From contig CM030335.1 in the NCBI GenBank assembly GCA_017654855.1, forward strand, positions 558,001 to 622,000: a stretch of DNA of 64,000 bases. The letters run 5' to 3'. A model generated the notes under the pieces. The model made no database searches. It saw only the letters and a list, made by a program, of their open reading frames with translations, and was not told the DNA's origin. The translations under genes and the position numbers were made by a program. Source of the DNA: Podospora anserina. Lineage: Eukaryota. Positions 23,633-63,332 of the stretch are shown here, in pieces; the stretch's first letter is position 1, and every line of letters starts with the position of its first letter.

Positions 23633-24253
23633 ATGAAGTTCACTCTCTCCACCGCCATCCTCACCGGGCTCGCCACCCTGGTCTCGGCCCAGTCCCCTCA
23701 AATGCCCGGCCTCGCCCCCAACTGCAACCGCTACCACTACGTCCAAAGCGGCGACACCTGCGCCGTCATCGCCGCCGCCAACGGCATCTCGGTCGCCCAG
23801 TTCCTCTCCTGGAACTCCGAAGTCAACGCGGGCTGCACCAACCTCTGGCTCAACTACTTTGTCTGCACCGGCGTCTCCTCGAGCGGCGGCACCACCACCG
23901 CCACCGTGACCAGCACCGCTGACAACGGCGGCACAACAACAACCAACACTGTCACGAGCACCAATGACAATGGCGGCACAACAACAACCGCTACTGTTAC
24001 CAGCACCGCTGGGAACGGCGGCACCACCACCACCTCTGGTGGCCCTACCAGCACCCCTACCAACACCTCCCCTCAGATGCCCGGGTTGCCTTCTACCTGC
24101 TGGTTGTTCCACACTGTTGAGACCGGGGATACTTGCGAGATTATTGCTGCCAGCTATGGGGTCACGCTTGCGCAGTTTTATGCTTGGAATCCCGAGATCA
24201 ACTCTACTTGCACCAACTTGTGGTTGGGATTTGCTGTTTGCGTTGGGGCGTAA
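23633..24253 (+). CDS. Secreted LysM-domain protein (2 LysM domains, Thr-rich repeat linker)
   Basis: Signal peptide; CNRYHYVQSGDTC..ISVAQFLSWNSEVNAGCTNLWLNYFVC and CWLFHTVETGDTC..FYAWNPEINSTCTNLWLGFAVCVG. Confidence 0.95.
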   Translation: MKFTLSTAILTGLATLVSAQSPQMPGLAPNCNRYHYVQSGDTCAVIAAANGISVAQFLSWNSEVNAGCTNLWLNYFVCTGVSSSGGTTTATVTSTADNGGTTTTNTVTSTNDNGGTTTTATVTSTAGNGGTTTTSGGPTSTPTNTSPQMPGLPSTCWLFHTVETGDTCEIIAASYGVTLAQFYAWNPEINSTCTNLWLGFAVCVGA

Positions 24254-27068: not shown

Positions 27069-28401
<1,333 letters not shown>

Positions 28402-30510
28402 TTTTGGTGTTGTGGAACGTGAGATAGGTATGGTAGGTGCTAGGTTCGTTATTGTTTCTGATCAGATCTGAAGGGTGAAGTCAAATCTTTGAACACAGGA
28501 TGTAGAAGATGGAGCCTTTCAACGACACACCGACGCAGCTATTTATCCACCGCGTCATCTCCTCTGACCGAATTCCGCAAAGACACCACGGATGTCGCCG
28601 CGGACAGGAAGGCCAAGGCAGCCATGTCTCTCGACCGTCACCTCCACGATCATTCGTCGTTTCTTGGGATCTGCGTTTCGTCTTTTATCGCAATGGCTTG
28701 CGTAACTCAGCCCTGTACCGACACTCTGCTCTAGCGGCAGCCAAACAGAAGCCAAGATGCTGCCAAAGTCCAGCTGGAACCAAACATTTCACGGCTAGAC
28801 ATGCAGAAGAGGAGGGGTCTAGATCATTAACGTGCCCGGTACTGGTGGAGGGCATGCGTAGGGCTGAGTTGATGAATGCTACATTATGCAGCCACTATGC
28901 GGTTGACTCCCGCTCATGACCAATGCTACCTGCCGTGGCTTGCCTGGCGCACTGTTTATTGATTCTCGGTGCGTTTTGGCAAGAGGTGTAGGGTGAAATG
29001 TCACATTCACACCGAGGACTTTTCACCATCAGTAGAGAGGGACCATGGTTCATCATGTTGATGGTGAAGGATCAATGTTTGAATGATATATTGACCGCTT
29101 ATGCGCCACAGATCATGGGATAGTAGAGCTTCACCTGGTTGGGCGACGTACGAGCTGAGGACAAACGCCACATTTTCCCGTCTTTTGTGTAACTTTTAGA
29201 TAACAACCTGGAGCACAACTACCTACCCCACGCGGCAGAAACAAGCCCCCCTTGATGTCTGGGGAGGTGGAGGGCGACAACACTCTCACTGTGAAGATCT
29301 GTCTCAGCAGTTTTCGTGGTTCCCGCAATCACCGAGGTGGCTTTTGAGAAGAGTCACAGTCTTCAGAATGTGAACTTGACAAAGAAAGAGAGAGGTCGAG
29401 CTCCGACGCCACTAGCGGTGATGCGTCAAGGGATTCAGGGGTAGCTTGGCTCACGTGATCTTTGAAACTTGTTTTCACTGCCATCAATGTTGGATTTAAG
29501 AGGAGAAAAGATGGAGTACAAGAGGACGATGCCGTATTATAAAGTTAAGGAGTCTGTTTCATGGGAATGCAACGGAGGATGTGGGGAGAGAGGGTGGCTG
29601 GAGCGACATTTGTTTGGTGGATAAAATCCATCCAACTGAGACAGCACGGGGCCCACCTGCGGGGGTGCCATGCGGAGAACGGCCCCGAGTCCATGGTTTG
29701 AGATGCTCCGGTTCGCGGGGATCATGGTGCAGGGTTGATGAATGGTAAGTTTGCACAGACATTGACGGCGGCGTTGTTGATACCATCGAACTAGGTAGTC
29801 GAAGACTTGGTAGCATTTTTTCCCACCAAGCTAAAAGCTGCCTTCCGGTGGGGTTGGACGTTCACTAGAATTTGGAAAGTGAATATTCTCAACTAATCCT
29901 ACACCTCGGTACGCTCTCACTGTCGGCCTAGTTGATCTTCGGTAGCGGAGGACTTTCCGGATTAGGAGCTAGGAAGCTCAGGGGCTCTCAACTCCCGACG
30001 CCAACCCAGGCGGAGAAATCAAATCCGGGGTGCAGCTTGACGTCGACACTTGCCAAGCCATGTCGGTGACAGCTTCATCAAGGAAGCAGGGCCGCACCTC
30101 GGCCAACTCCTCATTCTTGGACGAGGCCGAGATGGTCTCCATCGTAACGGTCTCGTCGTGACACATGGCAGGAAAATACGAAACACCGTGGATCTCCCGT
30201 TCACAATTATCCGGGGTTCTCTGAGCGTATGGAGGATCTCCGTCCTTCCGTGGATCAGAACAGGGAGCATCGCCGGGTGCCAATACCTGCACCTAACTGT
30301 ATGCAGACTCTAGTCCTTTTCTGACCGAGATATGGCTCGTATGACATGGAGTTACGGGGAAAGGTAGAACGGGTTGTTCCGTAAGGTAGGTATGCTTGCG
30401 AGAATCAAGTTGAATGACAGGTTTCGTCTGATCTATAAAGCAACTGTCAACAGCCCATATGTTTCGAGATTGTGGTCGGTCAATCATTCATCGACAGTAA
30501 ACCGCCCAAA

Positions 30511-31375
30511 ATGTTCTCCAACGCCGGACAGATTGCTCTCACCCTTCTCGCCGCTGCCCCTACGGCATTGGCCTGCCTGGGCTACACCGGCGGCCTTCCC
30601 AAGGCCACTGGGAATGTGGCTCTGACTGCGCCCATCTACGTCAAGGCTGGTCAGGTCTACGACGGTGGCTGGCGCAAGTTTGACAGAAACCCCAGCAGCT
30701 GCAATGGCCAGAGTGAAGGTGGTGAGAAGGACACCGCTTTCGTTGTTGAGCGTGGTGGTACTCTCCGCAACGTCATCATCGGTAAGACCGTCGGTGAGGG
30801 TGTCTACTGCAAGGGTGGCGGCTGCAACCTCGAGTTCATCTGGTTCGAGGACGTCTGCGAGGATGCCATCTCCATCGTAAGTGGACCGGTCTCCGACCGC
30901 CAGATTTCTACGGTCCGATCTAACCCCAATTACAGAAGGACGACCGTCCGGGAGATGTCACCAACATTATTGGTGGTGGTGCCTACCACGCCTCTGACAA
31001 GGTGATCCAGCACAACGGCTGCGGCCGTGTCAACGTGAGTGTTCTTCGAAGCACCCCTCATGGAACGTCCAACTCTAACATCCTCGGTAGATCATCAACT
31101 TCTATGCCGAGAACTACGGCAAGGTCTATCGCTCGTGCGGAACAGTAGGTTAACCCGATTCGGCATGGTTTGCGAGACGTGTACTAACAGCCTCGCAGTG
31201 CCAGAAGTGCGCCCGCGAAGTCTACGTCGAGGGTGTCACCGCCCGCAAGGGTGGCGAGGTTGTCGGCATCACCAAGGCCAACGGTGACAAGGCCACCTTG
31301 GTGAATGTCTGCACTGATGCCAAGACCCCGTGCCAGAACTACAGCGGTCCTGGTGCCAAGGACGGCGCTTGCTAG
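30511..31375 (+). CDS. Pectate lyase, family PL3
   Basis: Signal peptide; [54 protein letters not shown]; 3 introns. Confidence 0.95.
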
Positions 31376-31629: not shown

Positions 31630-32935
31630 TCAAGAAAACCCCCCATCCCCCTTCCCCCTCCCCCTCTCCCCCTGCCTATCACCCACCAACTCCTCCCCAG
31701 ACTCCCTCTCCAACCCCATCGCATCAATAGCCTGCATCTCCATATCAAACTCACTCGGCAGCGTCCTCAAGCTCCCATCCCTCCCCTGTCCGCCCCTATC
31801 ATACAACCTCGTGAACCCCTCCCTCTTCTGCCAGTGCTGACCCGGCACCATCGGCAGCGGCTTCTGCCCTCTGGTGATAGTACTGGCGGTATTCTGCGAC
31901 GTCCCACTAGCAAGTGGATCAACCTTCAGATTCCTAGCATAGTATTCTTCCCTCGTCGACAAAGCAGGCATATGCGACTTCCTCGTCGGCCCGACACACC
32001 CCAGCAGGGGAGCCAAGAAGGGGAGGTTCCCGCAGGTGATGCCGACCGACATTTCGAGGTAGGTCCACACGCCGGTTTGGACCTGGGACGAGTTGAAGAT
32101 GTCCCTGTCGGAGCCGATGAGGGCTATCCAGCGGAAGAAGCTGGCTACGAGGACGCTGGTTTGGTTAGTTCCTGGGAGTAGTGGTGGTGGAAAGGGAGGG
32201 GGAACGACGTACAAAATACCGAGACTAAAGACCCCCACTAAGCCGATTTTTGTCCTCCTCGGCACCCGAAGTTTCATCAACGGCGGGATGGGCATCACGA
32301 AAATGATGACGTCCCCTAGCGAGCTGATGATTGCGTTGGGGACACCCATCCTGTGGACTGGGTCTTGGAGGCAGGAGCCGGTTTGGTCCTTGTCCCAGAA
32401 GAAGGAAGGGGGTTTGCACTGGAGGGTTGTGCCCAAAACGTTGGCGACTGCCCAGCAGCCTGTGAGGATGGCGACGATCCAGGAGATGCGCCGGAAGGTG
32501 GCGCCTTGGAAGATTGTCATGTGGAAGATGATGAAGGAGAGTTTGATGAGGAAGAGGGTTGGGGGTTGGAGTTTCTGGATGATCCAGATCATGAGGAGGA
32601 ATTCTTTGAACCGTTCTTTCCCGAGGACAGGGATTGGGACGCCTTGGTTGGGTAGACCTGTTGTTTTTGTTAGTCCCAGAGTGTGATTAAAGGATACCTA
32701 ATTCAAGTATGTGGAAAGAGGATGTCGTACCGTAGAGCAAACATGCCACTGTTCCATAGCTCAGTATTAGACCACCCGTCATGCACCAGTCTTCCCTTCG
32801 TAACTCCTTTATGATCTTTAGCCGCGCGTATATTCTCGCTACATGTGACCCAGTTGACAGGATCAGGCCGATGACCACGGTGGCGAGGATGTACTGTTGT
32901 TTTTGCTCCGTGCTGAAGTTGTCCAGTTGGACCAT
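31630..32935 (-). CDS. Pth11-like / rhodopsin-domain integral membrane protein
   Basis: ARIYARLKIIKELRREDW, IKLSFIIF, QCKPPSFFWDK, DVIIFVMPIP, WTYLEMSVGITCGNLP; 2 introns. Confidence 0.88.
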
Positions 32936-47653: not shown

Positions 47654-49241
47654 CGATGATGATGGCACTTCAACATGCCCTTACTTGGCTGCCACCCAGC
47701 TTCCCCGTTGCCGCGGCGATAGCTGCCATCGTCCTCGCCGTCTTCATTAACACGCTTGCGACACCAAGAAGAGCAGACCCGCGGGACCACCTCTTCTAAA
47801 ACCCACCATCCCGTTCATCGGACACATCATCGGGTTGATCCGACACCAGGCAGATTACCACCGAATTCTACAGCGCAAATCCAAGCAGCCAATCGTTACA
47901 CTTCCTATACTTACAGGAAAGCTGTACGCCATCTTTGACCCCTCCTTAATCTCAGCCGGCCTCAAGAACAAGCACCTCTCAACGAAACCCCAGGTCAGAG
48001 CTGCCGTCGCGCCGTTGATAAAAGCCAGCAAAGGCACCGTCGACCTCATGATGAGCGAGCAGGGCGACGTGCTTCAAGACCGCATAATGCTACACGCCAT
48101 CCCGACTAGTTTCTCTAGGGAGCTACAGCAAAGTTTTATCGAGGCCGCCTTGCAAAAAGTATCCCGGCAATTCACCTCCTTCTCTAAGTCCAACTAATAA
48201 CAAAATATCCCTAGTATTTGGCTTTGGATCAGGAATATTGTCGCAAAGGCCACGACACCACCGGTATATGGCAAGCACCAGGACCCTTTCTCCCAGGACC
48301 CGAGCCTGCTACAATCTTTCTAGGACTACAACGAATCTATCATGGTACTAATGATAGACATCCTGCCGTCCTTCATCGCCAAGAAAAGCCACCTCGGGCG
48401 TATAAAGCTAGCCCAAGCCTTGACTCCTTACTACTCCTCCCAGGCAGAACAGTACCCTGCCGCCTCTGCCCTTATTCGTCTTCGTGCGCAGGAAATGCGC
48501 AACGCCGGTCTCCCAGTGGAGGATATCGCTAAGATTGAAACCCTCCTCCCTCTCGCAGCAATAACTAATACCGTCCCGACTTTGTTCTGGTTCTTTAGCC
48601 ATGTCTTCACACGGCCGGCTCTCGTTAAGCAACTCAGGAAAAAAGTAGAAGACAACTTACTCACCAGAGACGGCCCCAAAGCAAAACTGACCGTCTCGTT
48701 AGCTATGCTCGAAGAGAAAACACCTTTCCTGTGGAGCTGCTATAGAGAAACCCTCCGTCTTACTGTCCACCAAATCGCCACGAGGATAGTAATGCAAAAC
48801 ACGACTATCACGTCCCCCAAAACGGGACAAATATATTTTCTTGCAAAGGGAACCGTAGTTCAAATATCGATTGGGGCATCTCACTTTCTTCCGGAATACT
48901 GGGGGGAGAAGTACCTAGATTTCAAACCTGATCGGTTTTTGGGGTTAACGAAGGAAGAGGAGAGGGCGTTTAAGGTGGCTTATCAGCCGTTTGGCGGTGG
49001 ATTGCATCTCTGTCCGGGGAGGCATTTTGCCTTGGCGGAGATGATGGCTGTCATAACGATATTGCTGGTTGGGTTTAAGGTTAGGGGTTTGGATGGGGAG
49101 GGGGAGTGGAGGGAGCCTGGGAGGGGGACGGCGAGTATTATTGATGCGGCTACCAGGCCAAAGGATTATGGGGCGGGTTTTGGGGCGAAGGTTCGGAGGA
49201 GGGAGGGGTGGGAGGATGTTGTCTGGGAGTATAAGTTTTAA
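47654..49241 (+). pseudogene. Cytochrome P450 pseudogene (CYP7-like, Asn-type I-helix)
   Basis: N-terminal TM plus PPLLKPTIPFIGH hinge after a 1-bp deletion at ~47787; in-frame TAA TAA (48195-48200) and TAG (48321-48323); AAITNTVP, RETLR, FKPDRF, heme motif FGGGLHLCPG. Confidence 0.9.
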
Positions 49242-49583
49242 GTAAGGGAGGTTGCTCCCCAGGTAGGTTGACTATGGAGGCGGTAAGAGATGCGTGCCCG
49301 TTATGGCCAATTCAGAGTTTTCGACACTCATTGGGCTCTTATTATTCACTTTGTTGAGTGGCCATCTTGGCGAGCAAGTCGTCGTGGAAACAAGCTTCGA
49401 GCCATTTGAGCCACGAATCCTCGCCAGGAGCAAGTGGGTCTTGAGACAGACTTTTTACATGGGTGCGCTTTGCTATAAATAGAAACCTTTTCACTTACAC
49501 CTTTTTTTTCTCTTCTTTTTTCACACCACATTTCACACACCACATTTCACAGCACCGACACCGTTTCGGTATACCTCACAACA

Positions 49584-50603
49584 ATGGCTGAAACATTTCC
49601 TCGCTTCCCTCGGCTACCCTATGAGCTTCGGTATATAATCTGGGAATTCGCTATCCGACCGGCCGCACCTGGAGCGCACATTTTCACTATCTCCGACAGT
49701 ACAAACACAACCTCGGATGATTCTCGAGAAAATAAAGGTCATGTTTTAGTCTGCCAGCCGCGTTGCGATCAGACTCGGGGTGGAAAAGCCGACGGACAAC
49801 TCAACAACCCGTCAACCTATATTGCCGATAGCGGACTATGGACGGCGTGCAGGGAGTCCAGGAATATTATGGAACGAAAGTTGCTACAGCGCGAGGATCG
49901 TCCGATCTTATTTTGGGGCGACTCGAGTGATGGGCCGTCGCCTGTTAACCCTGAATGCTGGACGAATCGGCAGATCGCCCTCTTCCCCACGCGAGATCTC
50001 ATCATCCTCCAGTCTCAAATTTTCACTCCTTTTCGATGGACGGTGATGCCTGGGTCTCTTGATTGGGACAAGCCTACCTACCGCCAGTCACAGCTACCGT
50101 CGTGCGCTTTCTGGTCAGCAATGAAGAACGTGACAAGCCAAGCAGCACGACACATTGCCGTGGAGTACAATCCTGCCTGGGACTCCATGTCACTTCACTG
50201 GGGAGAAGTCACCAGGTTTGTGGACCTACTCTTAGGCCCGTCACGCGCCGAACTGGATTCCGGGCCGACATATGTGTGGTTTATCGACTACCGCCTTAAG
50301 AGAAGAAACCGCGTTCCAACCGAGAAACAACTTCGAACCGAGAGTGAAAGGGAGGAGCCGAGAGTGTATTATGGGGATGGCTGTCGCTACGTGGAGGTGT
50401 CTGAGCAGGATTCAGGGGAATCTGGAGATGGAGAGTGGAATGACGCCTTTGGGGCAGACCGCTGGCACCCTTTTAACAACAAGCCCATGTTCTCTAGGAA
50501 TGGAGTGCGTGGCTGCGTCAAAAGGGCAAAGGCGTTGCTTTACAAGGATGAGGAGTATGTTGACCGAGTCAACATTGGTATTTTGGCTTGTGAATCCTTG
50601 TGA
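49584..50603 (+). CDS. 2EXR-domain protein
   Basis: N-terminal FPRFPRLPYELRYIIWEFAIRP and GLWTACRESR. Confidence 0.85.
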   Translation: MAETFPRFPRLPYELRYIIWEFAIRPAAPGAHIFTISDSTNTTSDDSRENKGHVLVCQPRCDQTRGGKADGQLNNPSTYIADSGLWTACRESRNIMERKLLQREDRPILFWGDSSDGPSPVNPECWTNRQIALFPTRDLIILQSQIFTPFRWTVMPGSLDWDKPTYRQSQLPSCAFWSAMKNVTSQAARHIAVEYNPAWDSMSLHWGEVTRFVDLLLGPSRAELDSGPTYVWFIDYRLKRRNRVPTEKQLRTESEREEPRVYYGDGCRYVEVSEQDSGESGDGEWNDAFGADRWHPFNNKPMFSRNGVRGCVKRAKALLYKDEEYVDRVNIGILACESL

Positions 50604-51045
50604 TGAGTACATAAACTAATGCGGGTAGGCGTTTGGAGGGCACAGATTTACAGCGGTTTCAAAAGATAGATGTTGATTTTCGATAGAAACAAAATTAGAA
50701 TTCACTTTGTCTTACTATCTGCCCGGTGATATGGGTGTAGCGCTTTGGCGTTTCATTCGTCGAGACTGACGTTTATCTGCGGTCTCGTATCATATAGAAC
50801 GCATCTATCCCGCAGTGAAATAACACCTAGCGCCCTAAGCGCGGAAAGCATTCTGAATACTGCCTCGCTGGATGCCTTGTTTTGCCTTGTCCGCGCGACC
50901 CCAAAGTTCGCAGATTTTGGAGCAAATCTGCCGATTCTCCTGTAAAGAATCTATCAACTTGTCTATCTGTGATATATCACTGCTTCCCTAGAGTTTGACA
51001 GCACAGAGAGGCACATGCCAGCGTCTGCTTAATTTTTCCAACGCC

Positions 51046-52846
51046 ATGGCTGAAGTTGTAGAACTAGTGGTTGCCGCAAACTCTCTTGCAAAGACTTGTT
51101 CGACTTTTTGGAAACTTGGAGCTGATGGTTGAAATAGGCCGAGAGACCCCCGAGACGGTAGAAAGGGAGATCAGAAACTACGGCCTTATGTTGACGACCT
51201 GTTTCACGGCTGTTGAATGTGAGCAAAACTCTCTCGAGGCGCGCTGGCCAAAGGAAGAGTCTTCTTGTACGCCCGCCATGAAGTACTTGAGGAAAAACAA
51301 TTCCCTGCGCGACATCAGACGTCTCACTCGAGCGATAAGACACAAGATTGATGATCTTGCGGACAAGACCGCACAATTCCCAAGCAGTCTGCAGCTGATG
51401 TTGAATTTCAAATGGCATCTCCTCAAGCCGAATTTCACTGCCCTCTTACCATTCATGGAAACCCTCAAGTCAGACCTGATATTGGCTCAGAATACCTTGA
51501 AGCTGGAATCCCTCTTTGCAAGAGTGGAAACCAGAAAGGAAGAATATGCACGGGCACCGAGCGGTGAAATGATGTTCATTGAGGAAGAAATGTATGTTCC
51601 TCCCACCCATCTATTTCTCACTGTCGGGCCGGTTACTAACGAAAAGGATATCCAACAGCAGAGAAATAAAAAGGTCATATGGCTCAGTTGGTTTCCATGA
51701 TCCATGACCCTCAAGAGCATCCTGATATTACCGATGCGAGGAAGAGGCGGAGTGTCAGCCAGAATAAAGTCCTGGCGTTTTTAGCAGATTCCATGATTGC
51801 AAAGGGCATAGTGCTAGGGTCCCCGCCGCCAAGAGACTACAGAATTCCAAAGCAACCAGTTCTAGATCCCGGGCGCCGGTCAGGGCACCGCGCCGACAAT
51901 ACCTATAACCACATCCCGCATCGATACGGAGACATGGAGGTATCGCCACCGTCATCAGGGCTAACAACACCGCCCTCGTCCGAGCCGCCAACACCGAGCT
52001 CAACCAGCTCCCACATGATATCACCCCGGAGAAAAGACCCATATCAGTCCAGCTCCTCAAGATTCCGTACCGAATCTCCAGAAACTTTATCGAGAGAAGA
52101 AGCTCGTTCCATCCCTGCGAATCCGCCTCCTCCGCCCAAAAGAATTCCCTCAGCAGCACGACCATCACGGAAGGACAACATATCTAGCATACAAAACGAC
52201 CCAGCTTCTCGAATAGACGTGAAATCCAGCGTTTCACGGCAAGTGGAAGACAAGCGAAAGACAGTGGCAGTGAAAGGGAAACGCGAGACAACAGCATCCA
52301 GCTCAAAGTCCACCCCAACAAAGCTCAGGTTACAATTCGAACTGGAATCACCACACACCCAAATCCTCACCTCCCGCCACCGCGCCAACAAGCCTGTCTA
52401 TGGCCACATTAGTAGCCAGACTGAGAAATACCTCCAGGATGCACACCTCCACTCAGATAGAAAGATCAACATCATCTCGGTGGACCTGGCAGAACAACTG
52501 GGGTGGCGACCAGACAGCAGTCAGAAGAGAAAACCGCTGTATACCGCGTATGGAGAGGATGCAACGGTAGACGTGGTGGGCGCAGTTGAGATTGCAATTG
52601 TAATTCCCGGAAGGGTGGAACTTCGGAAGGAGTTTGATTTTCAAGTGTGCGAAAGGGGTCATGGAGTTGTTTTACCTGATTTTGGGGGTGAGAGTTCAGG
52701 AGTGGTTGATGCGCTGGGGTGAGGAGCAAGCTAAGGCACGGGCATGCTATCGAACGGGGCCGGGCATGAAGAAGGTGGGAGCAGCAACAAGTTGGAGGGA
52801 GAGAAGACTCAGAAGGTTGGTGATAATGTTGGTAAAGGGCACGTGA
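51046..52846 (+). pseudogene. HeLo-like (fungal N-terminal) domain + Ser/Pro-rich linker + retropepsin-like domain; three +1 frameshifts
   Basis: MAEVVELVVAANSLA..REIRNYGLML..NFKWHLLKPNFTALLPFMETLKSDLILAQNTL (HeLo-like pattern); intron 51592-51658; C-terminus DAHLHSDRKINIISVDLAEQLG..VVGAVEIAI..FDFQVCE / FYLILG (retropepsin-like). Confidence 0.55.
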
Positions 52847-53021
52847 GAGGTCCAAAGACGGGAAACACATCAGGTCAGCAAAGGAAATAACTAGGATGGG
52901 TTGAAATGGAGAAACGATGCCGGTTATAGGGAAGGAAAGGACAGATCGGAAGTGGGTGCACTTGGGGTCAGGAGTCAAGGGAGATTCAGGGGTAACAAAA
53001 CAACTACGTTATCTAACAAAA

Positions 53022-55265
53022 TTAAACAATATCCACCACTGTCTTGACTGCCTCTCCGAATAACACTTCCCTCGCGGCAAATACCAACCCTATTCTAGTA
53101 TATTCCTCAACACCATCCGTGGTGATGCCCGTGGCTCGCAGTGCCAATGCTGCTGTCGTGACGCGTTGAGTGCCGACCAACTTCAAGTCTTCGTCGCCCG
53201 ACGTGTCTTCGTCCGCAAACGCAACCAACAAACAGTGAAAGTGTTTGTATGGGAAAATGTATCTTTCACCGTCTGCATGGCGGTCGACCAGACTGTCGAG
53301 ATGTATCCGAAGCTTGTGCTCTTCGCCCGAGCTACTTGTCCTGAAAAATTCAAAAATATGGCCGCGATCAGAGGGAGTCATCTCCCTTTCAACCCCATTT
53401 ACACGGGCTAACATTCCGTTGACCCGGAGCTTTCCATAGCTCACGCCTCCCATCGGATCGGGCCCGGTATGTTCAACCTTGATGTCCATGATTTCAAGTG
53501 GAAACTTCCACTCTGTACATATCTTACGTGGGCCCTCGTCATCGTACACCGCAAAGCCAGGCTGATGGCTTTGGGCAAAGCGAACTTGCAGGTGGTCATC
53601 CCGAAGGCAAGCCCAGGACCAGGAGGGGGCAATATATCCGTCCCTTTGGTGTGAACGATGGGCGTATCTGAGAGTACGGTTGACACGCCAAACGCTGTAC
53701 CATGCAATGGCGCGCTGGATAGTGCCCTCCCATAACCCAGCATAGTACTTGGGTTGCTGTAAACAAAGGTTCGCCTCGGGACCTTCAGCACACATGGCCC
53801 AGACTTTCTTTGCCATGCCAGATAGTGCTGGAAGCCGGTCGGAAGGAAAGGTGAACTGGCAACCAGAGTAAAAAACAGCCAAATCGTACCAGGAGTTGTG
53901 GAGCCGCTGTTCGGCTGATTGCTCTGATAGCCAACACTGGCTGAGGAGTTCCTCACCCGGAAGACGTGGCCATCCAATGCGGCTGCTCAACTTTTCTGTT
54001 TGAAATTCATTGGCGCTGAGCTCGGCACACTCCCAGAAAACGGCATGTACTGTGAAGTGAAGAATTCTCGGTGACATGGCGCGTTCCTGCATGGCCCACC
54101 CACGCGATGTCAAGGGCCCCTTACTGATACACGAGATCCAGCTGGGGAGCGATGGTTCAATCACCAATGACTCCGGTTGACCGGTTTGGGTGTGACGCTG
54201 TATTGTGTAGGTGTTTGCCGGGTAGTCGAGGCCCGGTCTGTCCAAGAACAAGCCCTCTTCTGATGACATTGAGCCCGTGGCGGCCAGCGTGCACAAGGAG
54301 CCGGTGTAATACCGGCCAAAGTTGGCACATTCCAACGCCCAATCTGCTTTATGAGTATGGTCGTCTGAGGCGTCGTTGCTTTGCTGAATTATACAGAGAG
54401 CATCAACCCATAGGTAATGTACCAGACCCATTTTCTTTGTAAAGATGATGGCGTCTTGGATGGTCTTGGGGAGGCTTGCCATATCGATCCCTTGCTGCAT
54501 GGTCTCGAGATTACTTGGAGTCAGTTTTGTCCCGGCTGCTACTCCACCACCCCAACTGTAACTCAACGTAAAGTATTCCGCTTGGATCGGAGTGCCGTCC
54601 TGGACTACCAGTCGAGGCTTTGGAGCCCCTGGTTTACCTCCCACATCGATCACCCGGGTAGGTAGTATTGGCACAGCACGGTGACCGGACTGATCCAAGG
54701 TAGCCAGCATAGAGCAGCGCATGTGACGGTTCAAGCAGTTCGAGATCCAGTCACGCGCTATAGCAGCCACGGCTTCCAGCCCCTCATCGTTCTGAAGCGA
54801 GTGTATCATGCCATTTCCCGTATCATCAATCTCCCTTTCAGGCTTCAGACGGAGATCGTCCACACCATCATCGGATTTTTCTTCTGGCCTGCGGTACAAA
54901 GTAGCCTGTACCGTGTAACCAAGTTCATCTTGGGCCGGTGAGTATACCCAGATCGTATTTTCATCAAACTCGACATGAATCGGCGAAGAGACAGAGCGAA
55001 AGTCTTGAAAGCGTTTGGTGGTCGTGAATGCGTCATGCACAAGCTTTTGTCGGATAAGTCTGCACAGTGGGCATTCGGCCGCGCAAGCGTCTTCGAGTTT
55101 GAGGAAGCTTTCAGCTACCACGGCGTAGTCCTCGGGCTCAGTCCTAGGCTCGGTGGCCAAACGATGGACAAGGCCCTTACAGGCAGTGCAAAGAGATGGT
55201 TCTGAGGACATTGTTGACAGCCCACATCTCGCGGGTGAGTGGGACTCGAGAGATATTCCACACAC
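53022..55265 (-). CDS. Heterokaryon incompatibility (HET) domain protein
   Basis: LPTRVIDV, YFTLSYSWGG, LPKTIQDAI..YLWVDALCIIQ, PLTSRGWAMQERAMSPRILHF, DRLPALSGMA, APSWSWA. 747-aa single ORF; the start may be the ATG at 55211. Confidence 0.95.
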   Translation of the reverse strand: MCGISLESHSPARCGLSTMSSEPSLCTACKGLVHRLATEPRTEPEDYAVVAESFLKLEDACAAECPLCRLIRQKLVHDAFTTTKRFQDFRSVSSPIHVEFDENTIWVYSPAQDELGYTVQATLYRRPEEKSDDGVDDLRLKPEREIDDTGNGMIHSLQNDEGLEAVAAIARDWISNCLNRHMRCSMLATLDQSGHRAVPILPTRVIDVGGKPGAPKPRLVVQDGTPIQAEYFTLSYSWGGGVAAGTKLTPSNLETMQQGIDMASLPKTIQDAIIFTKKMGLVHYLWVDALCIIQQSNDASDDHTHKADWALECANFGRYYTGSLCTLAATGSMSSEEGLFLDRPGLDYPANTYTIQRHTQTGQPESLVIEPSLPSWISCISKGPLTSRGWAMQERAMSPRILHFTVHAVFWECAELSANEFQTEKLSSRIGWPRLPGEELLSQCWLSEQSAEQRLHNSWYDLAVFYSGCQFTFPSDRLPALSGMAKKVWAMCAEGPEANLCLQQPKYYAGLWEGTIQRAIAWYSVWRVNRTLRYAHRSHQRDGYIAPSWSWACLRDDHLQVRFAQSHQPGFAVYDDEGPRKICTEWKFPLEIMDIKVEHTGPDPMGGVSYGKLRVNGMLARVNGVEREMTPSDRGHIFEFFRTSSSGEEHKLRIHLDSLVDRHADGERYIFPYKHFHCLLVAFADEDTSGDEDLKLVGTQRVTTAALALRATGITTDGVEEYTRIGLVFAAREVLFGEAVKTVVDIV

Positions 55266-55489
55266 AGGTATATATGTGCTTTCACTTTATTATTGCCTGG
55301 AGTATTGACCAAAAAGCAACAGCGACCACCGCCTGACCAACTGCATAGATATCACGCGCAGCTGCCAGCATCTGGCATTGCTTGGCGGTAGGTTGCCAAC
55401 CAACCAACATGTTATTTCCGAACCCCGCCTCACAAAGAAGCCTTGACAACAACCTCACCAGTTTCAGCCACCAACAACTCGGCCTCGCT

Positions 55490-55951
55490 TTACTTCCCAC
55501 CCTCAGGCGCCCCCCCAGTGGCAGCAAATACCTTCCCCATAAAACCCAACATCCCCGCACTATCAACAAAAGAATCAAACACCCTCACCAATTTGGCGTC
55601 CTCGGTCAAGGTCAGCTTGTGCACATACTGGTTCTTGTACGGCTCGGTGACACCGGGCACGGCCGCGGTGCCGTTGCTGTTGAGGTAGACCACCGCCTTG
55701 AGCTGGGTCTCGTCAACCACAGTGTCGACGAGCTCGGCGTGGTAAGTCGCGAAGAGAGGGAAGGCCTGGGCCTGGAAGGCGGCGTACCCTTCTGCGTCTT
55801 TGTCGCCCTGGGGAGGGAGCGAGGCAGGATGGAAGTGGGCGGTGAAGTCGGGGGAGGCGAGGGACTTGATGGCCTGGGCGTCACGGTCGTTATGAGCCTT
55901 TACCCAGGCTTTGGCTGTGGTGATGATTTGCTCGCGGAGGGGGGATGACAT
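55490..55951 (-). CDS. SnoaL/NTF2-like protein (AusJ/Trt14-like)
   Basis: TAKAWVKAHNDRD..FHPASL..TVVDETQLKAVVY..PYKNQYVHKLTLTEDAKLVRVFDSFVDS. Confidence 0.8.
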   Translation of the reverse strand: MSSPLREQIITTAKAWVKAHNDRDAQAIKSLASPDFTAHFHPASLPPQGDKDAEGYAAFQAQAFPLFATYHAELVDTVVDETQLKAVVYLNSNGTAAVPGVTEPYKNQYVHKLTLTEDAKLVRVFDSFVDSAGMLGFMGKVFAATGGAPEGGK

Positions 55952-56424
55952 TTTGGGTGGTGGGTGAGCTTGAGGGATGTCACTTGGGTTGTGAGTGTAG
56001 GTATGCTGATATGGTATGTGTAGGTATATGTGTATGATGTGTTTATGTGTAGCGTGGAGAGGTGTGTGGGAGGGAGCTACCGGTGGTGGCCAGGAGTCTT
56101 AAATAGGTAAGCGTGGGGCAGTGTGGTGCAAGGACAGCGGGGTTGGGCGGCTGGGGGGTATGAGCATCTCTCACTGTGCGGGCGGTTACTTGCCCATCGG
56201 TGTGTTGTACAGCATGCAGCTGCTCTGGCCGTTGCGACGTTCCTGTGGCCGGTGTCCCACTTCTCTTTGGGGGCCGCAGTGGAAAAGGACGGGGTGAAAG
56301 CAAAGCCAGCAAAGACTGCAGGAATTTGGTTTTGTCTCGGAAACTTAGAGTCGAAGTAGCTGATATTGATTTGTGGTTTGATCATATCATCATGTTGAGC
56401 TATCATTACCTACGTGCCCGCCTC

Positions 56425-60584: not shown

Positions 60585-62000
60585 AGAGGTAAGGTAATCA
60601 GAGAGCCATCAGGATCGCGCCCAACTTCTGCTTCGCACATTTCTTTCTCAATTGTTTAGCACCTTGTCCAGGTAGCTAGGTGGCTAGGTAGCTATATCGT
60701 TTGATCGGCCAGTAGAGAGTACCTACCTTTGATGGTCATGTTAACGGGAACGATTTACCGAGGTAGGTATCCATAACTCTAGGTAATGGTATGGTGTCCA
60801 TTGATGGTCCGCATATTGCGCTGAACGGCATCACATGGGTGGGATATCTTTTGGCACTTGAGGCAAGATAATGCGGTGTTGAGCGCCCTCTCCGTGCCGT
60901 GTAGGAAATAAGGTGAACTTATCACGCGCGGACAATTGTCTCGTTTTGGCAAGTAGTAGTGAAAGGATCGTGTTGCTATTCCCAGATATACCTACGCATT
61001 CAGTATTGAGGTGCCTGAAGAAGCATTTAACTCCGGACAGGGCCGTTGGCAATGGCCAACATGGAGTGTGCGGCCTGTGCATTTAAGAGTGCCCAAGGTA
61101 GGTATCATTCAACGGTGCCTAGAACACAATAGGCAACCCCGCATTATTACCTACGGGAGTAGCAGACTCGTGGCAGGTTAAGGTGGGAGGGAGCGCGGGT
61201 GCCACACCTCGGCTCTTCTTTCGGCGGCGTGCCACACAGCTGGAACACTATAGGGCCCAGATCCGCACATGGATCGAAAGACGTTTTGGACGGCTCGAGT
61301 GTATCGTGAGGCGCAATAAATGAGCCCGTAGGTAGGTAGGTAGCATCGACAAGCCAACACACCTACCTCCCGCCAACCCGTGATAGGCAAACCTGGCGAC
61401 GTCTCATCAAGGTCACAGCCTCCTGAGGGGTATGTTGCAAAGAGCTGATTAATTGGAATATCTTACATGACAGGGCACTATTTCCTCACCATCTCACAGC
61501 AGCAGGAGACAGCCGGATCTCTGAGTGCTCGGCGCTTTACCTTATCCAGAGTTCTGCCGCACTGTGCCACCATGGACGCGGCTGGAGACTGCAGACACGT
61601 TCAACCTCTGGCTTAAAGTTGCGGCGTGGCCAGCACAGCACCGTGCCACCGAGCTGCTGCTCTTCAATCCCGTGCTTCTTAATTGTATGACAGTAATCCA
61701 GTAGTCCGTTCCTCCGAGCAAGCTGATGGCTTTGCCGCACACCCAGCAGTCCCAGCACGCGCCCAACTCGACCATGTTTGCACTCTGGGCAAAAATAGTA
61801 GACGCCGTCTCATGAGGCACAGGACGCCGAGGGTAAGGTAGGTAGGTAGGTGTTGTCTCGATTGTTCTCGAGAGTGATCTAGATTCCCACATTGATAATC
61901 TCTGTGTCGTCCAAACCTTGCCTCCCACGTTGTGACACTTGTCGCTTTCCAACTTCTTTTTTCATTTTTCATTTTGTATTGTCTGCGTCAGCGTATCGCC

Positions 62001-63332
62001 ATGTCCGACTCCGTCCCAACCGGCCCCCCTCAGTTTCCCCCGCCCATCGACCCGGATGATCCCGGCCGTGGCCCGCTGGTCATGGGCCTCAACTACGGCT
62101 TTACCATTGTGGCCATGATGGCCGTCGCCCTCCGCTTCTACGTGCGCAGGAAGGTTGGGAACCGGGCATGGGGGTGGGACGACTGGCTGATGCTGGTCGC
62201 CGTCATCTTCCAGGTCGTCTGCGAGTGCCTGTTTGCACTGTCGTTCAAGCACGGCTTCGGCAAACATGACTACAGCATCCAGAAGCCAGACCAGTTTGTC
62301 GAGATCATGAAGTGGGCCTGGATTGCCCAGGGGTTCGGCCAGGTCACGTCGATCGTGGCGCGCCTGTCCATCACCATTTCGCTCATCACCCTCTTTGGCG
62401 TCCACCGATGGTTCAAGTGGTTCCTGATCGTGCTGACCACAGTGCAAACCATGCTTGGCACCGCCATGCTCGTTCTTTCGTACGCTCAGGTGCGCCCGCT
62501 GGAGGCCCTGTGGAATGTCTTTATGGACCCTGCCAAGGTCTGGCGCCTCGACACAAAATACTTTATCAACCTCGGCTACCTCACACAGTCTGTGTACACC
62601 TTTTCCGACGTGGCTTATGTCGTCATCCCGGTCGGCATCATCTGGCGGCTCAACATGACACTGCACCGCCGGCTGGGCCTGATCGCCCTCCTGGCCGCCA
62701 TGCTCTTCACCGCCGCCATGTCCATCCTCAAGACCTACACCATCCACTGGCAGGGAGACCCAACCATCACGGATCCGCTCTACCGCAACAGTTTGCAGGT
62801 GCTCTATGCCAACCTCGAGCAGACTAGCGTCATCATCATGGGTTGCGTCCCGTCCCTGCGCGCCATTGTCAACGTTGAATTGCCGTTTGGGCTGTCCCGC
62901 CTCGGCCAGTCGGTGGCCAGTTTTCTGGGAAGCCGACGGTCGGCCACAAGCAAGGGCAGCGGCTTGTCCTTTCAGAAAGGGACCGGGAGCGGCGGCAGCG
63001 GGGGGGTCAGCTCCAAGCTCAAATCATTTGGCTCGTCGACGGTGGCGTCGAGGTATGATCATGACGCGACATATGCCGGGGGCTTCTACCAGGATCTGGA
63101 ACTCGGAACGCACAGTCTCGGGAACCATCACAGGTTCGGCACCAAAGTCCCGGTGGTCATGTCTGTCAGCCACAATGTCGGCAGCCCCGGGGCTCCAACG
63201 CCCCCTTCCAGCGGAGGGCATCATGGAGGCAGCACCGATCATCTTGTGCCGCCTGGTGGTGGGAACTACGTTGTGCGGACAGATCAGTTTTCGGTTCAGG
63301 AGTCATATCAAGGTCCAGGAAAGGCGCAGTGA
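62001..63332 (+). CDS. Pth11-like / rhodopsin-domain integral membrane protein
   Basis: ALRFYVRRKVGNRAWGWDDWLM, HGFGKH, VRPLEALWN, DVAYVVIP, LEQTSVIIMGCVPSLR. Confidence 0.9.
   Translation: MSDSVPTGPPQFPPPIDPDDPGRGPLVMGLNYGFTIVAMMAVALRFYVRRKVGNRAWGWDDWLMLVAVIFQVVCECLFALSFKHGFGKHDYSIQKPDQFVEIMKWAWIAQGFGQVTSIVARLSITISLITLFGVHRWFKWFLIVLTTVQTMLGTAMLVLSYAQVRPLEALWNVFMDPAKVWRLDTKYFINLGYLTQSVYTFSDVAYVVIPVGIIWRLNMTLHRRLGLIALLAAMLFTAAMSILKTYTIHWQGDPTITDPLYRNSLQVLYANLEQTSVIIMGCVPSLRAIVNVELPFGLSRLGQSVASFLGSRRSATSKGSGLSFQKGTGSGGSGGVSSKLKSFGSSTVASRYDHDATYAGGFYQDLELGTHSLGNHHRFGTKVPVVMSVSHNVGSPGAPTPPSSGGHHGGSTDHLVPPGGGNYVVRTDQFSVQESYQGPGKAQ

What the first reader, a model, noticed from the sequence alone, without database searches (positions are those of the whole stretch)
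51046..55265. Candidate cell-death/allorecognition module: HeLo-like/retropepsin-like fusion convergent with a HET-domain gene
Seen: a + strand gene with an N-terminal helical domain (MAEVVELV.. KW..K....L...E.LKS.L), a disordered linker, and a C-terminal segment with retroviral-type aspartic-protease spacing (HLHSDRKINIISVDLAEQLG...G.VEI...F.V...LILG) in which the catalytic D[ST]G is replaced by HSD. It ends about 180 bp from the stop of an intact HET gene, and a 2EXR gene lies on its other side. Known: HeLo/HELL domains are membrane-permeabilising death effectors, HET domains are TIR-like death effectors, and protease-controlled death pairs exist in fungi (het-Q). Inference: this may be an undescribed sensor/decoy-effector pair, with the pseudo-protease acting as a dimerisation or sensing domain.
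Basis: partly seen in the sequence, partly recalled or inferred. Interest (0 to 1): 0.7.

Follow-up and report, generated by a model that had tools for sequence, protein, structure and literature searches.

The report
Broken HeLo-like/pseudo-protease gene beside HET
A fungal gene that once joined a cell-death-type helical domain to an inactive retrovirus-type protease fold sits next to a HET incompatibility gene, but in this genome it is broken by three frameshifts; the undescribed protein family it belongs to is the more interesting part.

Summary
Window 51046-52846 (+) encodes an N-terminal all-helical domain related to HeLo-like/PigL_N (PF17111), a disordered Ser/Pro-rich linker, and a C-terminal retropepsin-fold domain with H-S-D where D[ST]G should be. 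An intact HET gene lies convergent to it, 175 bp from the frame-corrected stop, and a 2EXR gene lies upstream.

The gene is not intact. Against full-length relatives of 563-601 aa it needs one 67-nt intron and three frame corrections. Contigs from two other studies carry the identical sequence. The third frameshift is shared by all six related ORF variants, including two named sister species of the Podospora anserina complex. At this locus it is a decayed relic, at most a 347-aa remnant ORF.

The family is real and apparently undescribed: 65 representative proteins at E<=1e-3, and 0 of 18 full-length members keep D[ST]G.

In Cercophora samala an intact member and the orthologous HET gene have consecutive accessions on one contig, so the pairing is old. 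Nothing I could run shows that the linkage is functional or that the locus is polymorphic. The domain calls are supported; an active sensor/effector pair here is not.

The parts
51046..51117 (+). Exon 1, first piece: ATG frame, MAEVVELVVAANSLAKTCSTFWKL (first half of helix 1 of the HeLo-like domain)
   Evidence: 22 of 24 residues identical to P0002 and 17 of 24 to P0003. Left uncorrected, this frame stops at 51130-51132.
51118..51118 (+). Frameshift 1: a lone G where relatives have one codon (KL-[A/V]-[E/K]LM), which looks like a 2-nt loss
   Evidence: tblastn switches frame between 51117 and 51119. Sequence read. The same sequence is present in contigs of two other studies.
51119..51591 (+). 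Exon 1, second piece: the rest of the N-terminal helical (HeLo-like/PigL_N-related) domain, ELMVEIGRE...GEMMFIEEE
   Evidence: 103 of 159 residues identical to P0002 and 97 of 158 to P0003. The family profile hits the corresponding ORF, P0005, at E 2.8e-66. AF2 models are all-helical with pLDDT about 90.
51592..51658 (+). Intron, 67 nt (GTATGT ... TACTAAC ... CAG)
   Evidence: Sequence read. Relatives are continuous across this point. Many database 'short' family members stop just after this position, ending '..EM'.
51668..51672 (+). Frameshift 2: a run of five A where four would keep the frame (I-R-E-I-K | G-H-M-A)
   Evidence: The frame changes between REIK (51660-51671) and GHMAQ (from 51673). 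By my hand-reading, no alternative AG acceptor restores the frame.
51679..52722 (+). Remnant ORF of 347 aa: coiled-coil end, the LAFLADSMI..PPPRDY motif, the disordered linker, and a retropepsin-like domain lacking its last strand and helix
   Evidence: Identical to P0204. Annotated as a hypothetical protein in two sister species, under tags ending 401547. P0001 differs at 1 aa.
51830..52320 (+). Disordered Ser/Pro/Arg-rich linker (approximate limits)
   Evidence: pLDDT below 50 over residues 256-425 of the P0002 model. This is also the region of low conservation in the alignments.
52375..52674 (+). Retropepsin-like domain, in-frame part. His at 52450-52452 occupies the catalytic-Asp position (H-S-D at 52450-52458)
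   Evidence: Foldseek's top hits are retropepsin-like: APRc, Ddi1 RVP, EIAV and HIV protease. VIA gives 3s8i Z 9.0, rmsd 2.6 over 94 residues. The family profile aligns with DDI2 (4rgh_A) at E 0.054, placing the family Asp on the Asp of DSGA.
52675..52684 (+). Frameshift 3: an insertion of 7 or 10 nt within 52670-52684 (VVL | ... | GVRVQEW)
   Evidence: tblastn changes frame here. Sequence read. The resulting tail ..VVDALG is shared by all 6 related ORF variants, including two named sister species.
52685..52846 (+). Out-of-frame tail that still reads as the last strand and C-terminal helix of the domain (GVRVQEWLMRWGEEQ...). The ancestral stop is at 52844-52846
   Evidence: 15 of 22 residues identical to P0003 in the shifted frame. 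ORF 52604-52846.
53022..55211 (-). Intact HET-domain gene (729 aa), convergent with the broken gene
   Evidence: PF06985 E 5.4e-21. 710 of 729 residues identical to named sister species, and 444 of 721 to the C. samala orthologue.
49584..50603 (+). 2EXR-family gene upstream
   Evidence: PF20150 E 2.3e-10, 41.9 bits against a cutoff of 24.8.

Best explanation
The + strand locus 51046-52846 is a decayed copy of a member of an uncharacterised ascomycete protein family.

Intact members are 440-760 aa long and have four parts:
1. An N-terminal helical bundle of about 160 aa, distantly related to the HeLo-like/PigL_N (PF17111) and SesA domains.
2. A coiled-coil segment and a conserved 'LCHLA..MVE.G.VP..PPE.F.F' motif.
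3. A long disordered Ser/Pro/Arg-rich linker.
4. A C-terminal retropepsin-fold domain of about 110-120 aa that never carries the D[ST]G catalytic signature, i.e. a pseudo-protease.

In this genome, which belongs to the Podospora anserina species complex, three frameshifts break the gene. No full-length protein can be made; at most a 347-aa remnant ORF survives. The convergent HET gene is intact and conserved.

The two genes were already neighbours in the common ancestor of Podospora and Cercophora samala, where the family member is still intact. The pairing is therefore inherited. The locus as it stands today is a relic, not a working two-gene module.

For intact relatives I infer the following; none of it is shown. 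The N-terminal bundle is a membrane-acting executioner of the HELLP/MLKL type. The C-terminal pseudo-enzyme is its regulatory or oligomerisation handle, much as the pseudokinase is for MLKL.
For: Breaks in the gene:
- tblastn of P0002 and P0003 needs four frame segments plus one intron.
- The read-through with X at each join is 576 aa with 0 stops.
- Contigs from two other studies are identical over the region.
- The frameshift-3 tail is shared by 6 of 6 related ORF variants, two of them named sister species.
- The gene model in those species starts at the internal ATG.

Family:
- 65 representatives at E<=1e-3, 22 at E<=1e-10.
- The architecture is visible in 18 full-length members.
- Named members are Sordariales, plus Phialocephala and Zalerion.

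N-terminal domain:
- ESM-atlas leads to PigL_N/SesA clusters at 0.94-0.95.
- PF17111 subthreshold in 9 of 64 members, E 4.3e-4 to 0.072.
- P0073 scores 25.6 bits on PF17111 and E 6e-4 on SesA, and matches the family profile at probability 97.7%, E 1.3e-12.
- Four members are named 'Fungal N-terminal domain-containing protein' by UniRef.
- PF17111 is the 'HeLo-like' domain according to passages of PMC9815663.
- Structural matches: Rx CC Z 10.7, MLKL N-terminal domain Z 9.0 (two entries), NRG1 CC-R 7.1, MLA13 7.1, AtMLKL3 7.0.

C-terminal domain:
- Model pLDDT 80-94.
- All of Foldseek's top 10 are retropepsin-like.
- DDI1/Ddi1 RVP Z 8.1-9.0; EIAV and M-PMV protease Z 7-7.5.
- Family profile against DDI2, E 0.054, collinear.
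- ESM leads to RVP_2/Asp_protease_2 at 0.91.
- Residue at the catalytic position in 18 members: D 11, E 2, H 3, N 1, S 1. D[ST]G in 0 of 18.

Linkage:
- P0003 is KAK0666041.1 and the HET orthologue is KAK0666042.1, on one 141,549-bp contig.
- The same consecutive-accession pattern holds for the remnant and HET in two sister species, where the window itself shows that the two genes are adjacent.

Relaxed constraint:
- Remnant 323/347 and 317/347 identical, against HET 710/729 and 689/729, in the same two species pairs.
- One lineage yields only a 61-aa ORF, P0044.
Against: Pfam and structure:
- No Pfam family reaches its threshold for either domain in the window pieces, P0002, P0003 or any of 64 relatives.
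- The best structural matches of the N domain are generic helical bundles (IncA Z 13.1, dynactin 12.6). The MLKL and CC matches (Z 7-10.7) lie below the tool's stated caution level for helical proteins. HET-s HeLo is not among the 50 rows shown.
- Foldseek E-values for the C domain are weak (best 0.018; 0 at E<=0.001), and the profile hit to DDI2 is only E 0.054.

Against 'mere relic':
- Apart from the three frameshifts there is no in-frame stop.
- The 347-aa ORF length is kept in two annotated sister species, and one variant has an in-frame 16-aa insertion.
- Three short, low-depth contigs from runs guessed to be RNA lie on the region.
- Together these leave room for a retained, shortened product.

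Other limits:
- Faster evolution of the remnant may simply reflect its disordered content.
- Whether frameshifts 1 and 2 are shared with sister species was inferred from gene models, not seen in DNA.
Confidence: 0.78

Rival explanations
1. The HeLo-like/pseudo-protease gene and the convergent HET gene form a working two-gene death or allorecognition module in this genome, with the pseudo-protease acting as the sensing or dimerising part.
For: - Both domain assignments are supported.
- The same gene pair is adjacent in Cercophora samala, at 60% HET identity.
- The HET gene is intact and conserved.
Against: - The partner gene carries three frameshifts, confirmed in independent contigs. The third is shared across sister species.
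- The first 24 codons of the executioner-type domain are cut off from the rest.
- No divergent alleles were seen: 17 runs of 5 studies hold the 2-kb stretch at word share 1.00, and among Logan variants that are otherwise identical to the window's ORF only one amino-acid difference was seen. Some of these runs may be the same strain.
- Adjacency in one related genus is what inherited synteny alone would give.
- Neighbours of the other family members could not be examined.
Confidence: 0.07
2. The 347-aa remnant ORF (51679-52722) is a retained, shortened gene with a function of its own. It comprises the linker plus a truncated pseudo-protease and has lost the death-type N domain. It might, for instance, act as a regulator or antagonist of intact paralogues such as the 601-aa copy on another chromosome of a sister species.
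For: - The ORF is open and of equal length (347 aa) in two annotated sister species.
- A third variant keeps the frame through a 16-aa insertion.
- It contains no in-frame stops.
- Small contigs from runs guessed to be RNA lie on it.
- An intact paralogue exists in P. pseudopauciseta under locus tag 608110.
Against: - It diverges faster than the HET neighbour: 93.1% against 97.4%, and 91.4% against 94.5%.
- The frameshift removes the last strand and helix of the fold, while the out-of-frame DNA still encodes them recognisably. That looks like recent decay rather than a new design.
- One lineage yields only a 61-aa ORF here.
- Three other named sister species with an annotated HET orthologue have no protein in this cluster.
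- The RNA status of the runs is a guess and depth is only 2-3.
Confidence: 0.12
3. The frameshifts are errors of the assembly, and the gene is intact in the organism.
For: Frameshift 2 lies in a run of five A, a typical place for long-read indel errors.
Against: - Contigs assembled from two other studies' runs, at depth about 40, are identical over 50950-52950 with 0 gaps.
- Frameshifts 1 and 3 are not in homopolymers.
- Frameshift 3 is seen in proteins of two separately sequenced and annotated sister species and in several Logan variants.
- The neighbouring 729-aa HET ORF is uninterrupted.
Confidence: 0.02

Closest known systems
HeLo-like (HELL) domain proteins, Pfam PF17111 (now named PigL_N), e.g. 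HELLP of Chaetomium/Podospora. That HELLP is a cell-death executioner activated by an amyloid motif templated from an NLR is recalled knowledge. The equation PF17111 = HeLo-like was read in passages of PMC9815663.
   Same: - An N-terminal, all-helical domain of about 150-160 aa that starts at residue 1-3 with the MAE[VA]xGL pattern.
- Collinear subthreshold PF17111 hits from profile position 1.
- A profile link through P0073.
- MLKL-type bundles among the structural matches.
   Different: - No member reaches the Pfam cutoff.
- There is no C-terminal amyloid motif; a retropepsin-fold domain sits there instead.
- No NLR gene was found among the 42 window ORFs scanned.
- Death activity is untested.
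MLKL (four-helix bundle + brace + pseudokinase)
   Same: - The overall logic: an N-terminal helical bundle, a helical 'brace' (helices 170-201 and 213-227 of the P0002 model), then a catalytically dead enzyme fold.
- The MLKL N-terminal domain matches the N-domain model at Z 9.0, rmsd 2.9 over 116 residues (6ux8) and over 100 residues (4btf).
   Different: - The dead enzyme is a retropepsin fold, not a kinase.
- A disordered linker of about 170 aa separates the parts.
- The similarity is structural and weak for a helical protein.
- No functional data exist.
DDI1/Ddi1 retroviral-protease-like (RVP) domain and other retropepsin-like domains (Rickettsia APRc, retroviral proteases)
   Same: - Fold: 3s8i Z 9.0, 4rgh Z 8.8, 5yq8 8.8, 7d66 8.6, 2i1a 8.4; EIAV 7.5; APRc 7.2-7.5.
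- A collinear profile alignment to DDI2, including the strand-loop-'NLIS'-helix region and the terminal 'hhhG' motif.
   Different: - D[ST]G is absent in 0 of 18 members (D-R/Q/S/T/P-x at best). His occupies the position in the window's clade.
- No UBL or UBA domains.
- No Pfam aspartic-protease hit at E<=0.1 in 64 relatives.
- Dimerisation is untested.
het-Q1/het-Q2 and other protease-controlled fungal death pairs (gasdermin-like protein cleaved by an adjacent S8 or CHAT protease; recalled knowledge)
   Same: A death-type domain and a protease-type fold at one locus in a Podospora genome.
   Different: - Here both folds lie in one polypeptide.
- The protease fold lacks catalytic residues.
- The death-type domain is HeLo-like, not gasdermin-like.
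- The neighbour is a HET gene, not a protease.
- No polymorphism was seen.

Membership tests
HeLo-like / PigL_N (Pfam PF17111) | Match to the PF17111 profile at or above its gathering score (27.2 bits) | tested here: not met
   - Window pieces, P0002 and P0003: no hit at E<=1 or E<=10.
- 9 of 64 relatives hit below the cutoff, at 12.9-20.2 bits.
- The bridging proteins P0073 and P0072 score 25.6 and 23.4 bits.
HeLo-like / PigL_N (Pfam PF17111) | Remote homology by profile comparison to proteins carrying the domain | tested here: inconclusive
   - Family N-domain profile (A5) against P0073: hhalign probability 97.7%, E 1.3e-12 over 148 columns.
- P0073 is itself only near threshold for PF17111 (E 9e-6) and SesA (E 6e-4).
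- UniRef names 4 of 10 looked-up members 'Fungal N-terminal domain-containing protein'.
- ESM-atlas leads at 0.94-0.95.
HeLo-like / PigL_N (Pfam PF17111) | N-terminal all-helical bundle resembling the MLKL/HeLo four-helix bundle | tested here: inconclusive
   - The models are confidently helical: pLDDT about 90 and 91.6.
- Matches: MLKL N-terminal domain Z 9.0 (6ux8, 4btf), Rx CC 10.7, NRG1 CC-R 7.1, MLA13 7.1, AtMLKL3 7.0.
- Generic bundles score higher (IncA 13.1), and the tool warns that Z below about 13 is common for helical proteins.
HeLo-like / PigL_N (Pfam PF17111) | Membrane-targeting or cell-death activity of the isolated domain | not testable with these tools
   Needs expression assays.
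HELLP-type amyloid-controlled effector | A C-terminal amyloid signalling motif and an adjacent NLR gene | tested here: not met
   - The C-terminus is a folded retropepsin-like domain.
- No NACHT or NB-ARC family appears among the Pfam hits of 42 window ORFs at E<=1e-5.
- No dedicated amyloid-motif search was run.
Retropepsin-like aspartic peptidases (DDI1 RVP, RVP_2, Asp_protease_2) | Retropepsin fold | tested here: met
   - Foldseek ranks 1-10 are all retropepsin-like, at probability 0.95-1.00 but E 0.018-0.069.
- VIA Z 8.1-9.0 to five Ddi1/DDI1 entries, rmsd 2.6-3.2 over 86-104 residues.
- These were shown on the P0002 model, not on the window's broken copy.
Retropepsin-like aspartic peptidases (DDI1 RVP, RVP_2, Asp_protease_2) | Catalytic D-[ST]-G motif | tested here: not met
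   - Window: H-S-D at 52450-52458.
- 18 full-length members: D 11, E 2, H 3, N 1, S 1 at the Asp position, and 0 of 18 with [ST]G after it.
- The register is fixed by the profile alignment to DDI2.
Retropepsin-like aspartic peptidases (DDI1 RVP, RVP_2, Asp_protease_2) | Match to a Pfam aspartic-protease profile | tested here: not met
   No such family at E<=0.1 in 64 relatives, nor at E<=1 or E<=10 in the window pieces, P0002 and P0003. The only sequence-level link is DDI2 in the PDB at E 0.054.
Retropepsin-like aspartic peptidases (DDI1 RVP, RVP_2, Asp_protease_2) | Homodimer formation | not tested
   No usable result was obtained; see Tried and rejected.
HET domain (PF06985), the neighbouring gene | Match to PF06985 above its gathering score, in an intact ORF | tested here: met
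   E 5.4e-21, 75.9 bits against a cutoff of 22.5, profile positions 1-146 of 146. The ORF is an uninterrupted 729 aa.
Allorecognition (het) locus | Two or more divergent alleles kept within the species | tested here: inconclusive
   - 17 runs of 5 studies hold the 2-kb stretch at word share 1.00, and two laid contigs are identical.
- The HET protein identical to the window's was seen on 17 contigs.
- Many of these runs may be one laboratory strain, so this is no population sample.

The most novel reading that the evidence does not exclude
Intact members of this family, such as the 563-aa Cercophora samala and 601-aa Podospora pseudopauciseta proteins, would be a new class of fungal cell-death executioner built like MLKL: a HeLo-like bundle held in check or switched on by a C-terminal pseudo-protease instead of an amyloid motif or pseudokinase. 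On this reading the conserved convergent HET gene is its working partner, and the P. anserina complex has recently lost the chromosome-4 copy of the pair.
Probability: 0.1. Interest if true: 0.75.

Novelty: new variant of a known kind. Interest (0 to 1): 0.4.

Why it matters
HeLo-like domains are among the commonest predicted death effectors of fungi. Those understood so far are switched on by amyloid templating from an NLR.

This family couples such a domain to a catalytically dead retropepsin fold, which would be a second way of controlling these bundles and a fungal parallel to MLKL's pseudoenzyme control. I found no paper describing the combination:
- 0 papers hold both 'HeLo-like' and 'aspartic protease'.
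- The two papers holding 'retropepsin', 'HeLo' and 'fungal' appear unrelated by title and abstract.
- The survey of fungal NLR-associated domains, PMC9815663, has 0 mentions of retropepsin, aspartyl or RVP.

For this particular locus the result is sobering. The gene is a relic, so it is not a place to look for a working incompatibility system. It does point to intact relatives that can be tested.

Tried and rejected
- **Own genome search:** no genome is held for this window, so paralogues in the same genome could not be sought. tblastn of all 73 fetched proteins against the window found no second copy outside 50900-52950.
- **Synteny in other genomes:** the first metagenome scan with the 18-sequence alignment gave an error because it had no conserved stretch. 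The second, with 5 sequences, matched 203 pattern stretches but none encoded a relative. No tool here reads eukaryote genome records. Linkage could therefore only be inferred from consecutive accessions and shared contig lengths.
- **Homodimer prediction of the C domain** (2 copies of residues 425-575 of P0002): no verdict, score 0.00, alignment not used. This counts neither for nor against dimerisation.
- **Expression:** no RNA holder is listed for the stretch. Three contigs of 155-210 nt at depth 2-3, from runs only guessed to be RNA, lie on 51171-51325, 51988-52197 and 52757-52911. This is too little to call transcription, and none crosses the intron or a frameshift.
- **PDB sequence search** with the 2-sequence profile: 0 matches at E<=10.
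- **Pfam on window pieces and orthologues:** nothing meaningful.
- **Mobile-element origin:** no direct or inverted repeats of 25 nt or more in 49000-56000. The only ORFs flanking the gene (49479-55286) give 2EXR and HET hits. G+C is ordinary, 0.45-0.54.
- **Earlier notes of this scan:** nothing by place, sequence or words.
- **Literature on locus tags:** 0 papers.
- **Alternative splicing to rescue frameshift 2:** rejected by hand from the sequence. No AG gives an intron of the needed length, and a TAA at 51667-51669 closes the downstream frame.
- **Orthology of the window copy:** the tree leaves the four-member clade unresolved, so I cannot say which of P0002 and P0003 is the orthologue.

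Full report
**What is in the sequence**

The window is fungal DNA. On the + strand an ATG at 51046 opens MAEVVELVVAANSLAKTCSTFWKL, but this frame stops after 28 codons, at 51130-51132. The sequence continues in another frame from 51119 (ELMVEIGRETPE...GEMMFIEEE).

- A textbook fungal intron lies at 51592-51658 (GTATGT...TACTAAC...CAG, 67 nt).
- After the intron the reading needs a second frame change, in a run of five A (51668-51672).
- A 350-codon open frame (51670-52722) follows.
- A third frame change within 52670-52684 leads to a tail that runs to a stop at 52844-52846.

An intact 729-aa HET-domain gene lies convergent to this gene on the minus strand, at 53022-55211 (PF06985 E 5.4e-21). 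Upstream is a 2EXR gene at 49584-50603 (PF20150 E 2.3e-10).

**The gene is broken, and the breaks are real**

A search of 5.8 billion proteins with the long ORF gave two full-length relatives: P0002 (601 aa, Podospora pseudopauciseta) and P0003 (563 aa, Cercophora samala). A full HMMER scan later added P0004 (589 aa, Triangularia verruculosa).

tblastn of P0002 and P0003 against the window gives four collinear pieces in alternating frames:
- residues 1-24: 22 of 24 identical to P0002;
- residues 25-179: 103 of 159 identical;
- residues 183-549: 169 of 377 identical;
- the C-terminal 'LILGVRVQEWLMRWGEEQ' piece: 15 of 22 identical to P0003.

Frameshift 1 is a lone G at 51118 where the relatives have one codon. 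Frameshift 3 is an insertion of 7 or 10 nt. Neither lies in a homopolymer. No alternative acceptor rescues frameshift 2; I checked this by hand. Read through with X at each join, the gene gives 576 aa and no in-frame stop.

Contigs assembled from runs of two other studies, at depth about 40, match 50950-52950 with 0 differences and 0 gaps, so this is not an assembly error.

All six related ORF variants end in the frameshift-3 tail ...VVDALG. They include proteins annotated in P. pseudopauciseta and P. bellae-mahoneyi under tags ending 401547. That break is therefore older than the split of these species. Their gene models start at the internal ATG (51679 here), which suggests that the upstream breaks are shared too. 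That last point is inference; I did not see the DNA.

**Which organism and locus**

The HET protein is 710/729 identical to proteins of four named species of the Podospora anserina complex (tags ending 401550) and 689/729 identical to a fifth. Its next relative is the C. samala protein at 444/721, and after that 37-39% identity in other classes.

The window therefore comes from that species complex. P0002 (tag 608110) is an intact paralogue elsewhere in a sister genome, not the orthologue at this position. The tree joins the window copy, P0002, P0003 and P0004 at 100/100 support but does not resolve them. The window branch (0.58) is longer than those of P0002 (0.20) and P0003 (0.37) and shorter than that of P0004 (0.87).

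**The family**

A profile of P0002 and P0003, run against 1.84 billion representative proteins, found 65 at E<=1e-3, 22 at E<=1e-10 and 5 at E<=1e-30. Eighteen full-length members (442-755 aa) share one plan:
- a helical N domain of about 160 aa with an invariant Trp;
- a coiled-coil 'ETIRQLRE' stretch;
- a 'LCHLA.SMVE.G.VP..PPE.F.F' motif;
- a long Ser/Pro/Arg-rich stretch;
- a C-terminal domain of about 110 aa, 'A.IDR.L..NLIS...A..LGL ... G.V.L.W ... C.VCE.L..PLIFG'.

Two members (P0007, P0066) carry the C domain twice.

The many 165-185-aa 'stand-alone' hits end at '...EM', exactly where the window has its intron. I read them as exon-1 read-throughs by ORF callers that ignore introns, as P0005 is for this window.

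Named members come from Sordariales, one Leotiomycete (Phialocephala) and Zalerion.

**N-terminal domain**

No Pfam model reaches its cutoff. The evidence for a link to the HeLo-like group is indirect:
- PF17111 (PigL_N) appears below threshold, collinear from profile position 1, in 9 of 64 relatives (E 4.3e-4 to 0.072).
- The family's N-domain profile finds P0073 and P0072 at about E 1e-10. These score 25.6 and 23.4 bits on PF17111 (cutoff 27.2) and also touch SesA.
- hhalign of the family profile against P0073 gives probability 97.7%, E 1.3e-12.
- UniRef calls four members 'Fungal N-terminal domain-containing protein'.
- The language-model atlas points to PigL_N/SesA clusters at 0.94-0.95.
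- Passages of PMC9815663 equate PF17111 with the 'HeLo-like' pore-forming domain and relate it to MLKL.

AF2 models are confidently helical: P0002 residues 1-230 at pLDDT about 90, and P0010 at 91.6.

In an all-against-48,161-chain comparison the best matches are generic bundles (IncA Z 13.1, dynactin p150 12.6). The list also holds Rx CC (Z 10.7, rmsd 2.4 over 102 of 107 residues), the MLKL N-terminal domain twice (Z 9.0), Sw-5b (8.3), NRG1 CC-R (7.1), MLA13 (7.1) and AtMLKL3 (7.0). These values lie below the tool's caution line for helical proteins. I count them as consistent with a HeLo-like/MLKL-type bundle, not as proof of one.

**C-terminal domain**

The P0002 model has pLDDT 80-94 over residues 447-573.
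- Foldseek's ten best PDB matches are all retropepsin-like (Rickettsia APRc, Ddi1/DDI1 RVP domains), with EIAV and HIV proteases further down. E-values are weak: 0.018 at best, and none at or below 0.001.
- VIA-align gives Z 9.0 (3s8i, rmsd 2.6 over 94 residues), 8.8 (4rgh), 8.8 (5yq8), 8.6 (7d66), 8.4 (2i1a) and 7-7.5 for retroviral proteases.
- The 18-member profile finds human DDI2 in the PDB at E 0.054. The alignment is collinear and puts the family's Asp on the Asp of DSGA, and the terminal 'LIFG' on the protease's 'LLG'.
- The atlas gives RVP_2, Asp_protease_2 and gag-asp_proteas at 0.91.

At the catalytic position the 18 members have D 11, E 2, H 3, N 1 and S 1. None has [ST]G after it; the closest are 'DTS' and 'DSQ'. 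The window has H-S-D at 52450-52458.

The fold is therefore retropepsin-like and the chemistry is gone throughout the family.

**Linkage to HET**

In C. samala the intact family member is KAK0666041.1 and the orthologous HET protein is KAK0666042.1, both on a 141,549-bp contig. The same consecutive-accession pattern holds for the remnant and HET in two sister species, where the window itself shows that the two genes are adjacent. I take this to mean that the genes are neighbours in C. samala as well.

The pairing therefore predates the Podospora-Cercophora split. That is what inherited gene order would give, and I could not examine the neighbours of any other member.

No NLR gene and no other death-type domain appear among the 42 further window ORFs scanned. 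The surroundings are ordinary accessory genes: P450, SnoaL, NmrA, an MFS transporter, LysM, subtilase and pectate lyase.

**Relic or retained fragment?**

For decay:
- There are three independent frameshifts.
- The first 24 codons are cut off from the domain.
- The last strand and helix of the C domain are out of frame yet still recognisable.
- The remnant is 93.1% and 91.4% identical to its counterparts in two sister species, where HET is 97.4% and 94.5%.
- One lineage yields only a 61-aa ORF (P0044).
- Three named sister species with an annotated HET have no protein in the remnant's cluster.

For retention of the 347-aa ORF:
- The length is unchanged in two annotated species.
- One variant has an in-frame 16-aa insertion.
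- There are no stops.
- A few low-depth contigs come from runs only guessed to be RNA.

**How intact members may work (inference only)**

By analogy with HELLP, HET-S and MLKL (recalled knowledge), the N-terminal bundle would act on membranes once released or oligomerised. Retropepsin folds normally pair up, so the C-terminal pseudo-protease is a natural oligomerisation or ligand-binding handle, with the long disordered linker as tether or cleavage target. The homodimer prediction gave no verdict, so this remains untested.

**Novelty**

I found no description of a HeLo-like domain joined to a retropepsin-like domain. I read only search listings, abstract starts and passages of PMC9815663. Supplements were not opened, and they could list such architectures.

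I rate this a new variant of a known kind. The locus itself is of modest interest because it is broken; the family is of more interest.

Noticed in passing
P0010-P0067 (database proteins); window 51590-51700: Most 'stand-alone' 165-185-aa relatives of the N domain end at '...EM', exactly at the window's intron donor. They look like exon-1 read-throughs from intron-blind ORF calling, so the domain is probably rarely or never free-standing in this family.
   Followed up: partly
P0007 (676 aa, Podospora fimiseda) and P0066 (659 aa, Zalerion maritima): Each of these members carries two copies of the retropepsin-like C domain in one chain. A tandem pair could form the two-lobed pepsin-like arrangement within a single molecule.
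   Followed up: no
P0002 (locus tag 608110) versus P0202 (locus tag 401547), both P. pseudopauciseta: One sister species has both an intact 601-aa paralogue, whose tag suggests another chromosome, and the broken copy next to HET. I could not check whether the window's own genome also keeps an intact paralogue.
   Followed up: no
P0207 (357 aa, unnamed Logan variant of the remnant ORF): It carries an in-frame 16-aa expansion of the PPSS[EG]P.TPPSS repeat in the disordered linker, compared with the window's ORF.
   Followed up: no
window 53022-55211 (-), N-terminal about 230 aa of the HET protein: The region ahead of the HET domain carries paired Cys motifs (C..C ... C..C) and has no Pfam match. 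The whole protein has close full-length relatives only down to 37-39% identity outside Sordariales.
   Followed up: no
window 27589-28461 (-), 23480-24250 (+), 30439-31002 (+): Subtilase S8, LysM and pectate-lyase ORFs, which look like typical secreted-protein genes. The S8 gene is about 23 kb from the HET locus, and nothing links the two.
   Followed up: no
window 31633-32697 (-) and 61899-63329 (+): Two ORFs with the fungal rhodopsin domain (PF20684), at E 4e-39 and 3e-34, within one 64-kb window.
   Followed up: no
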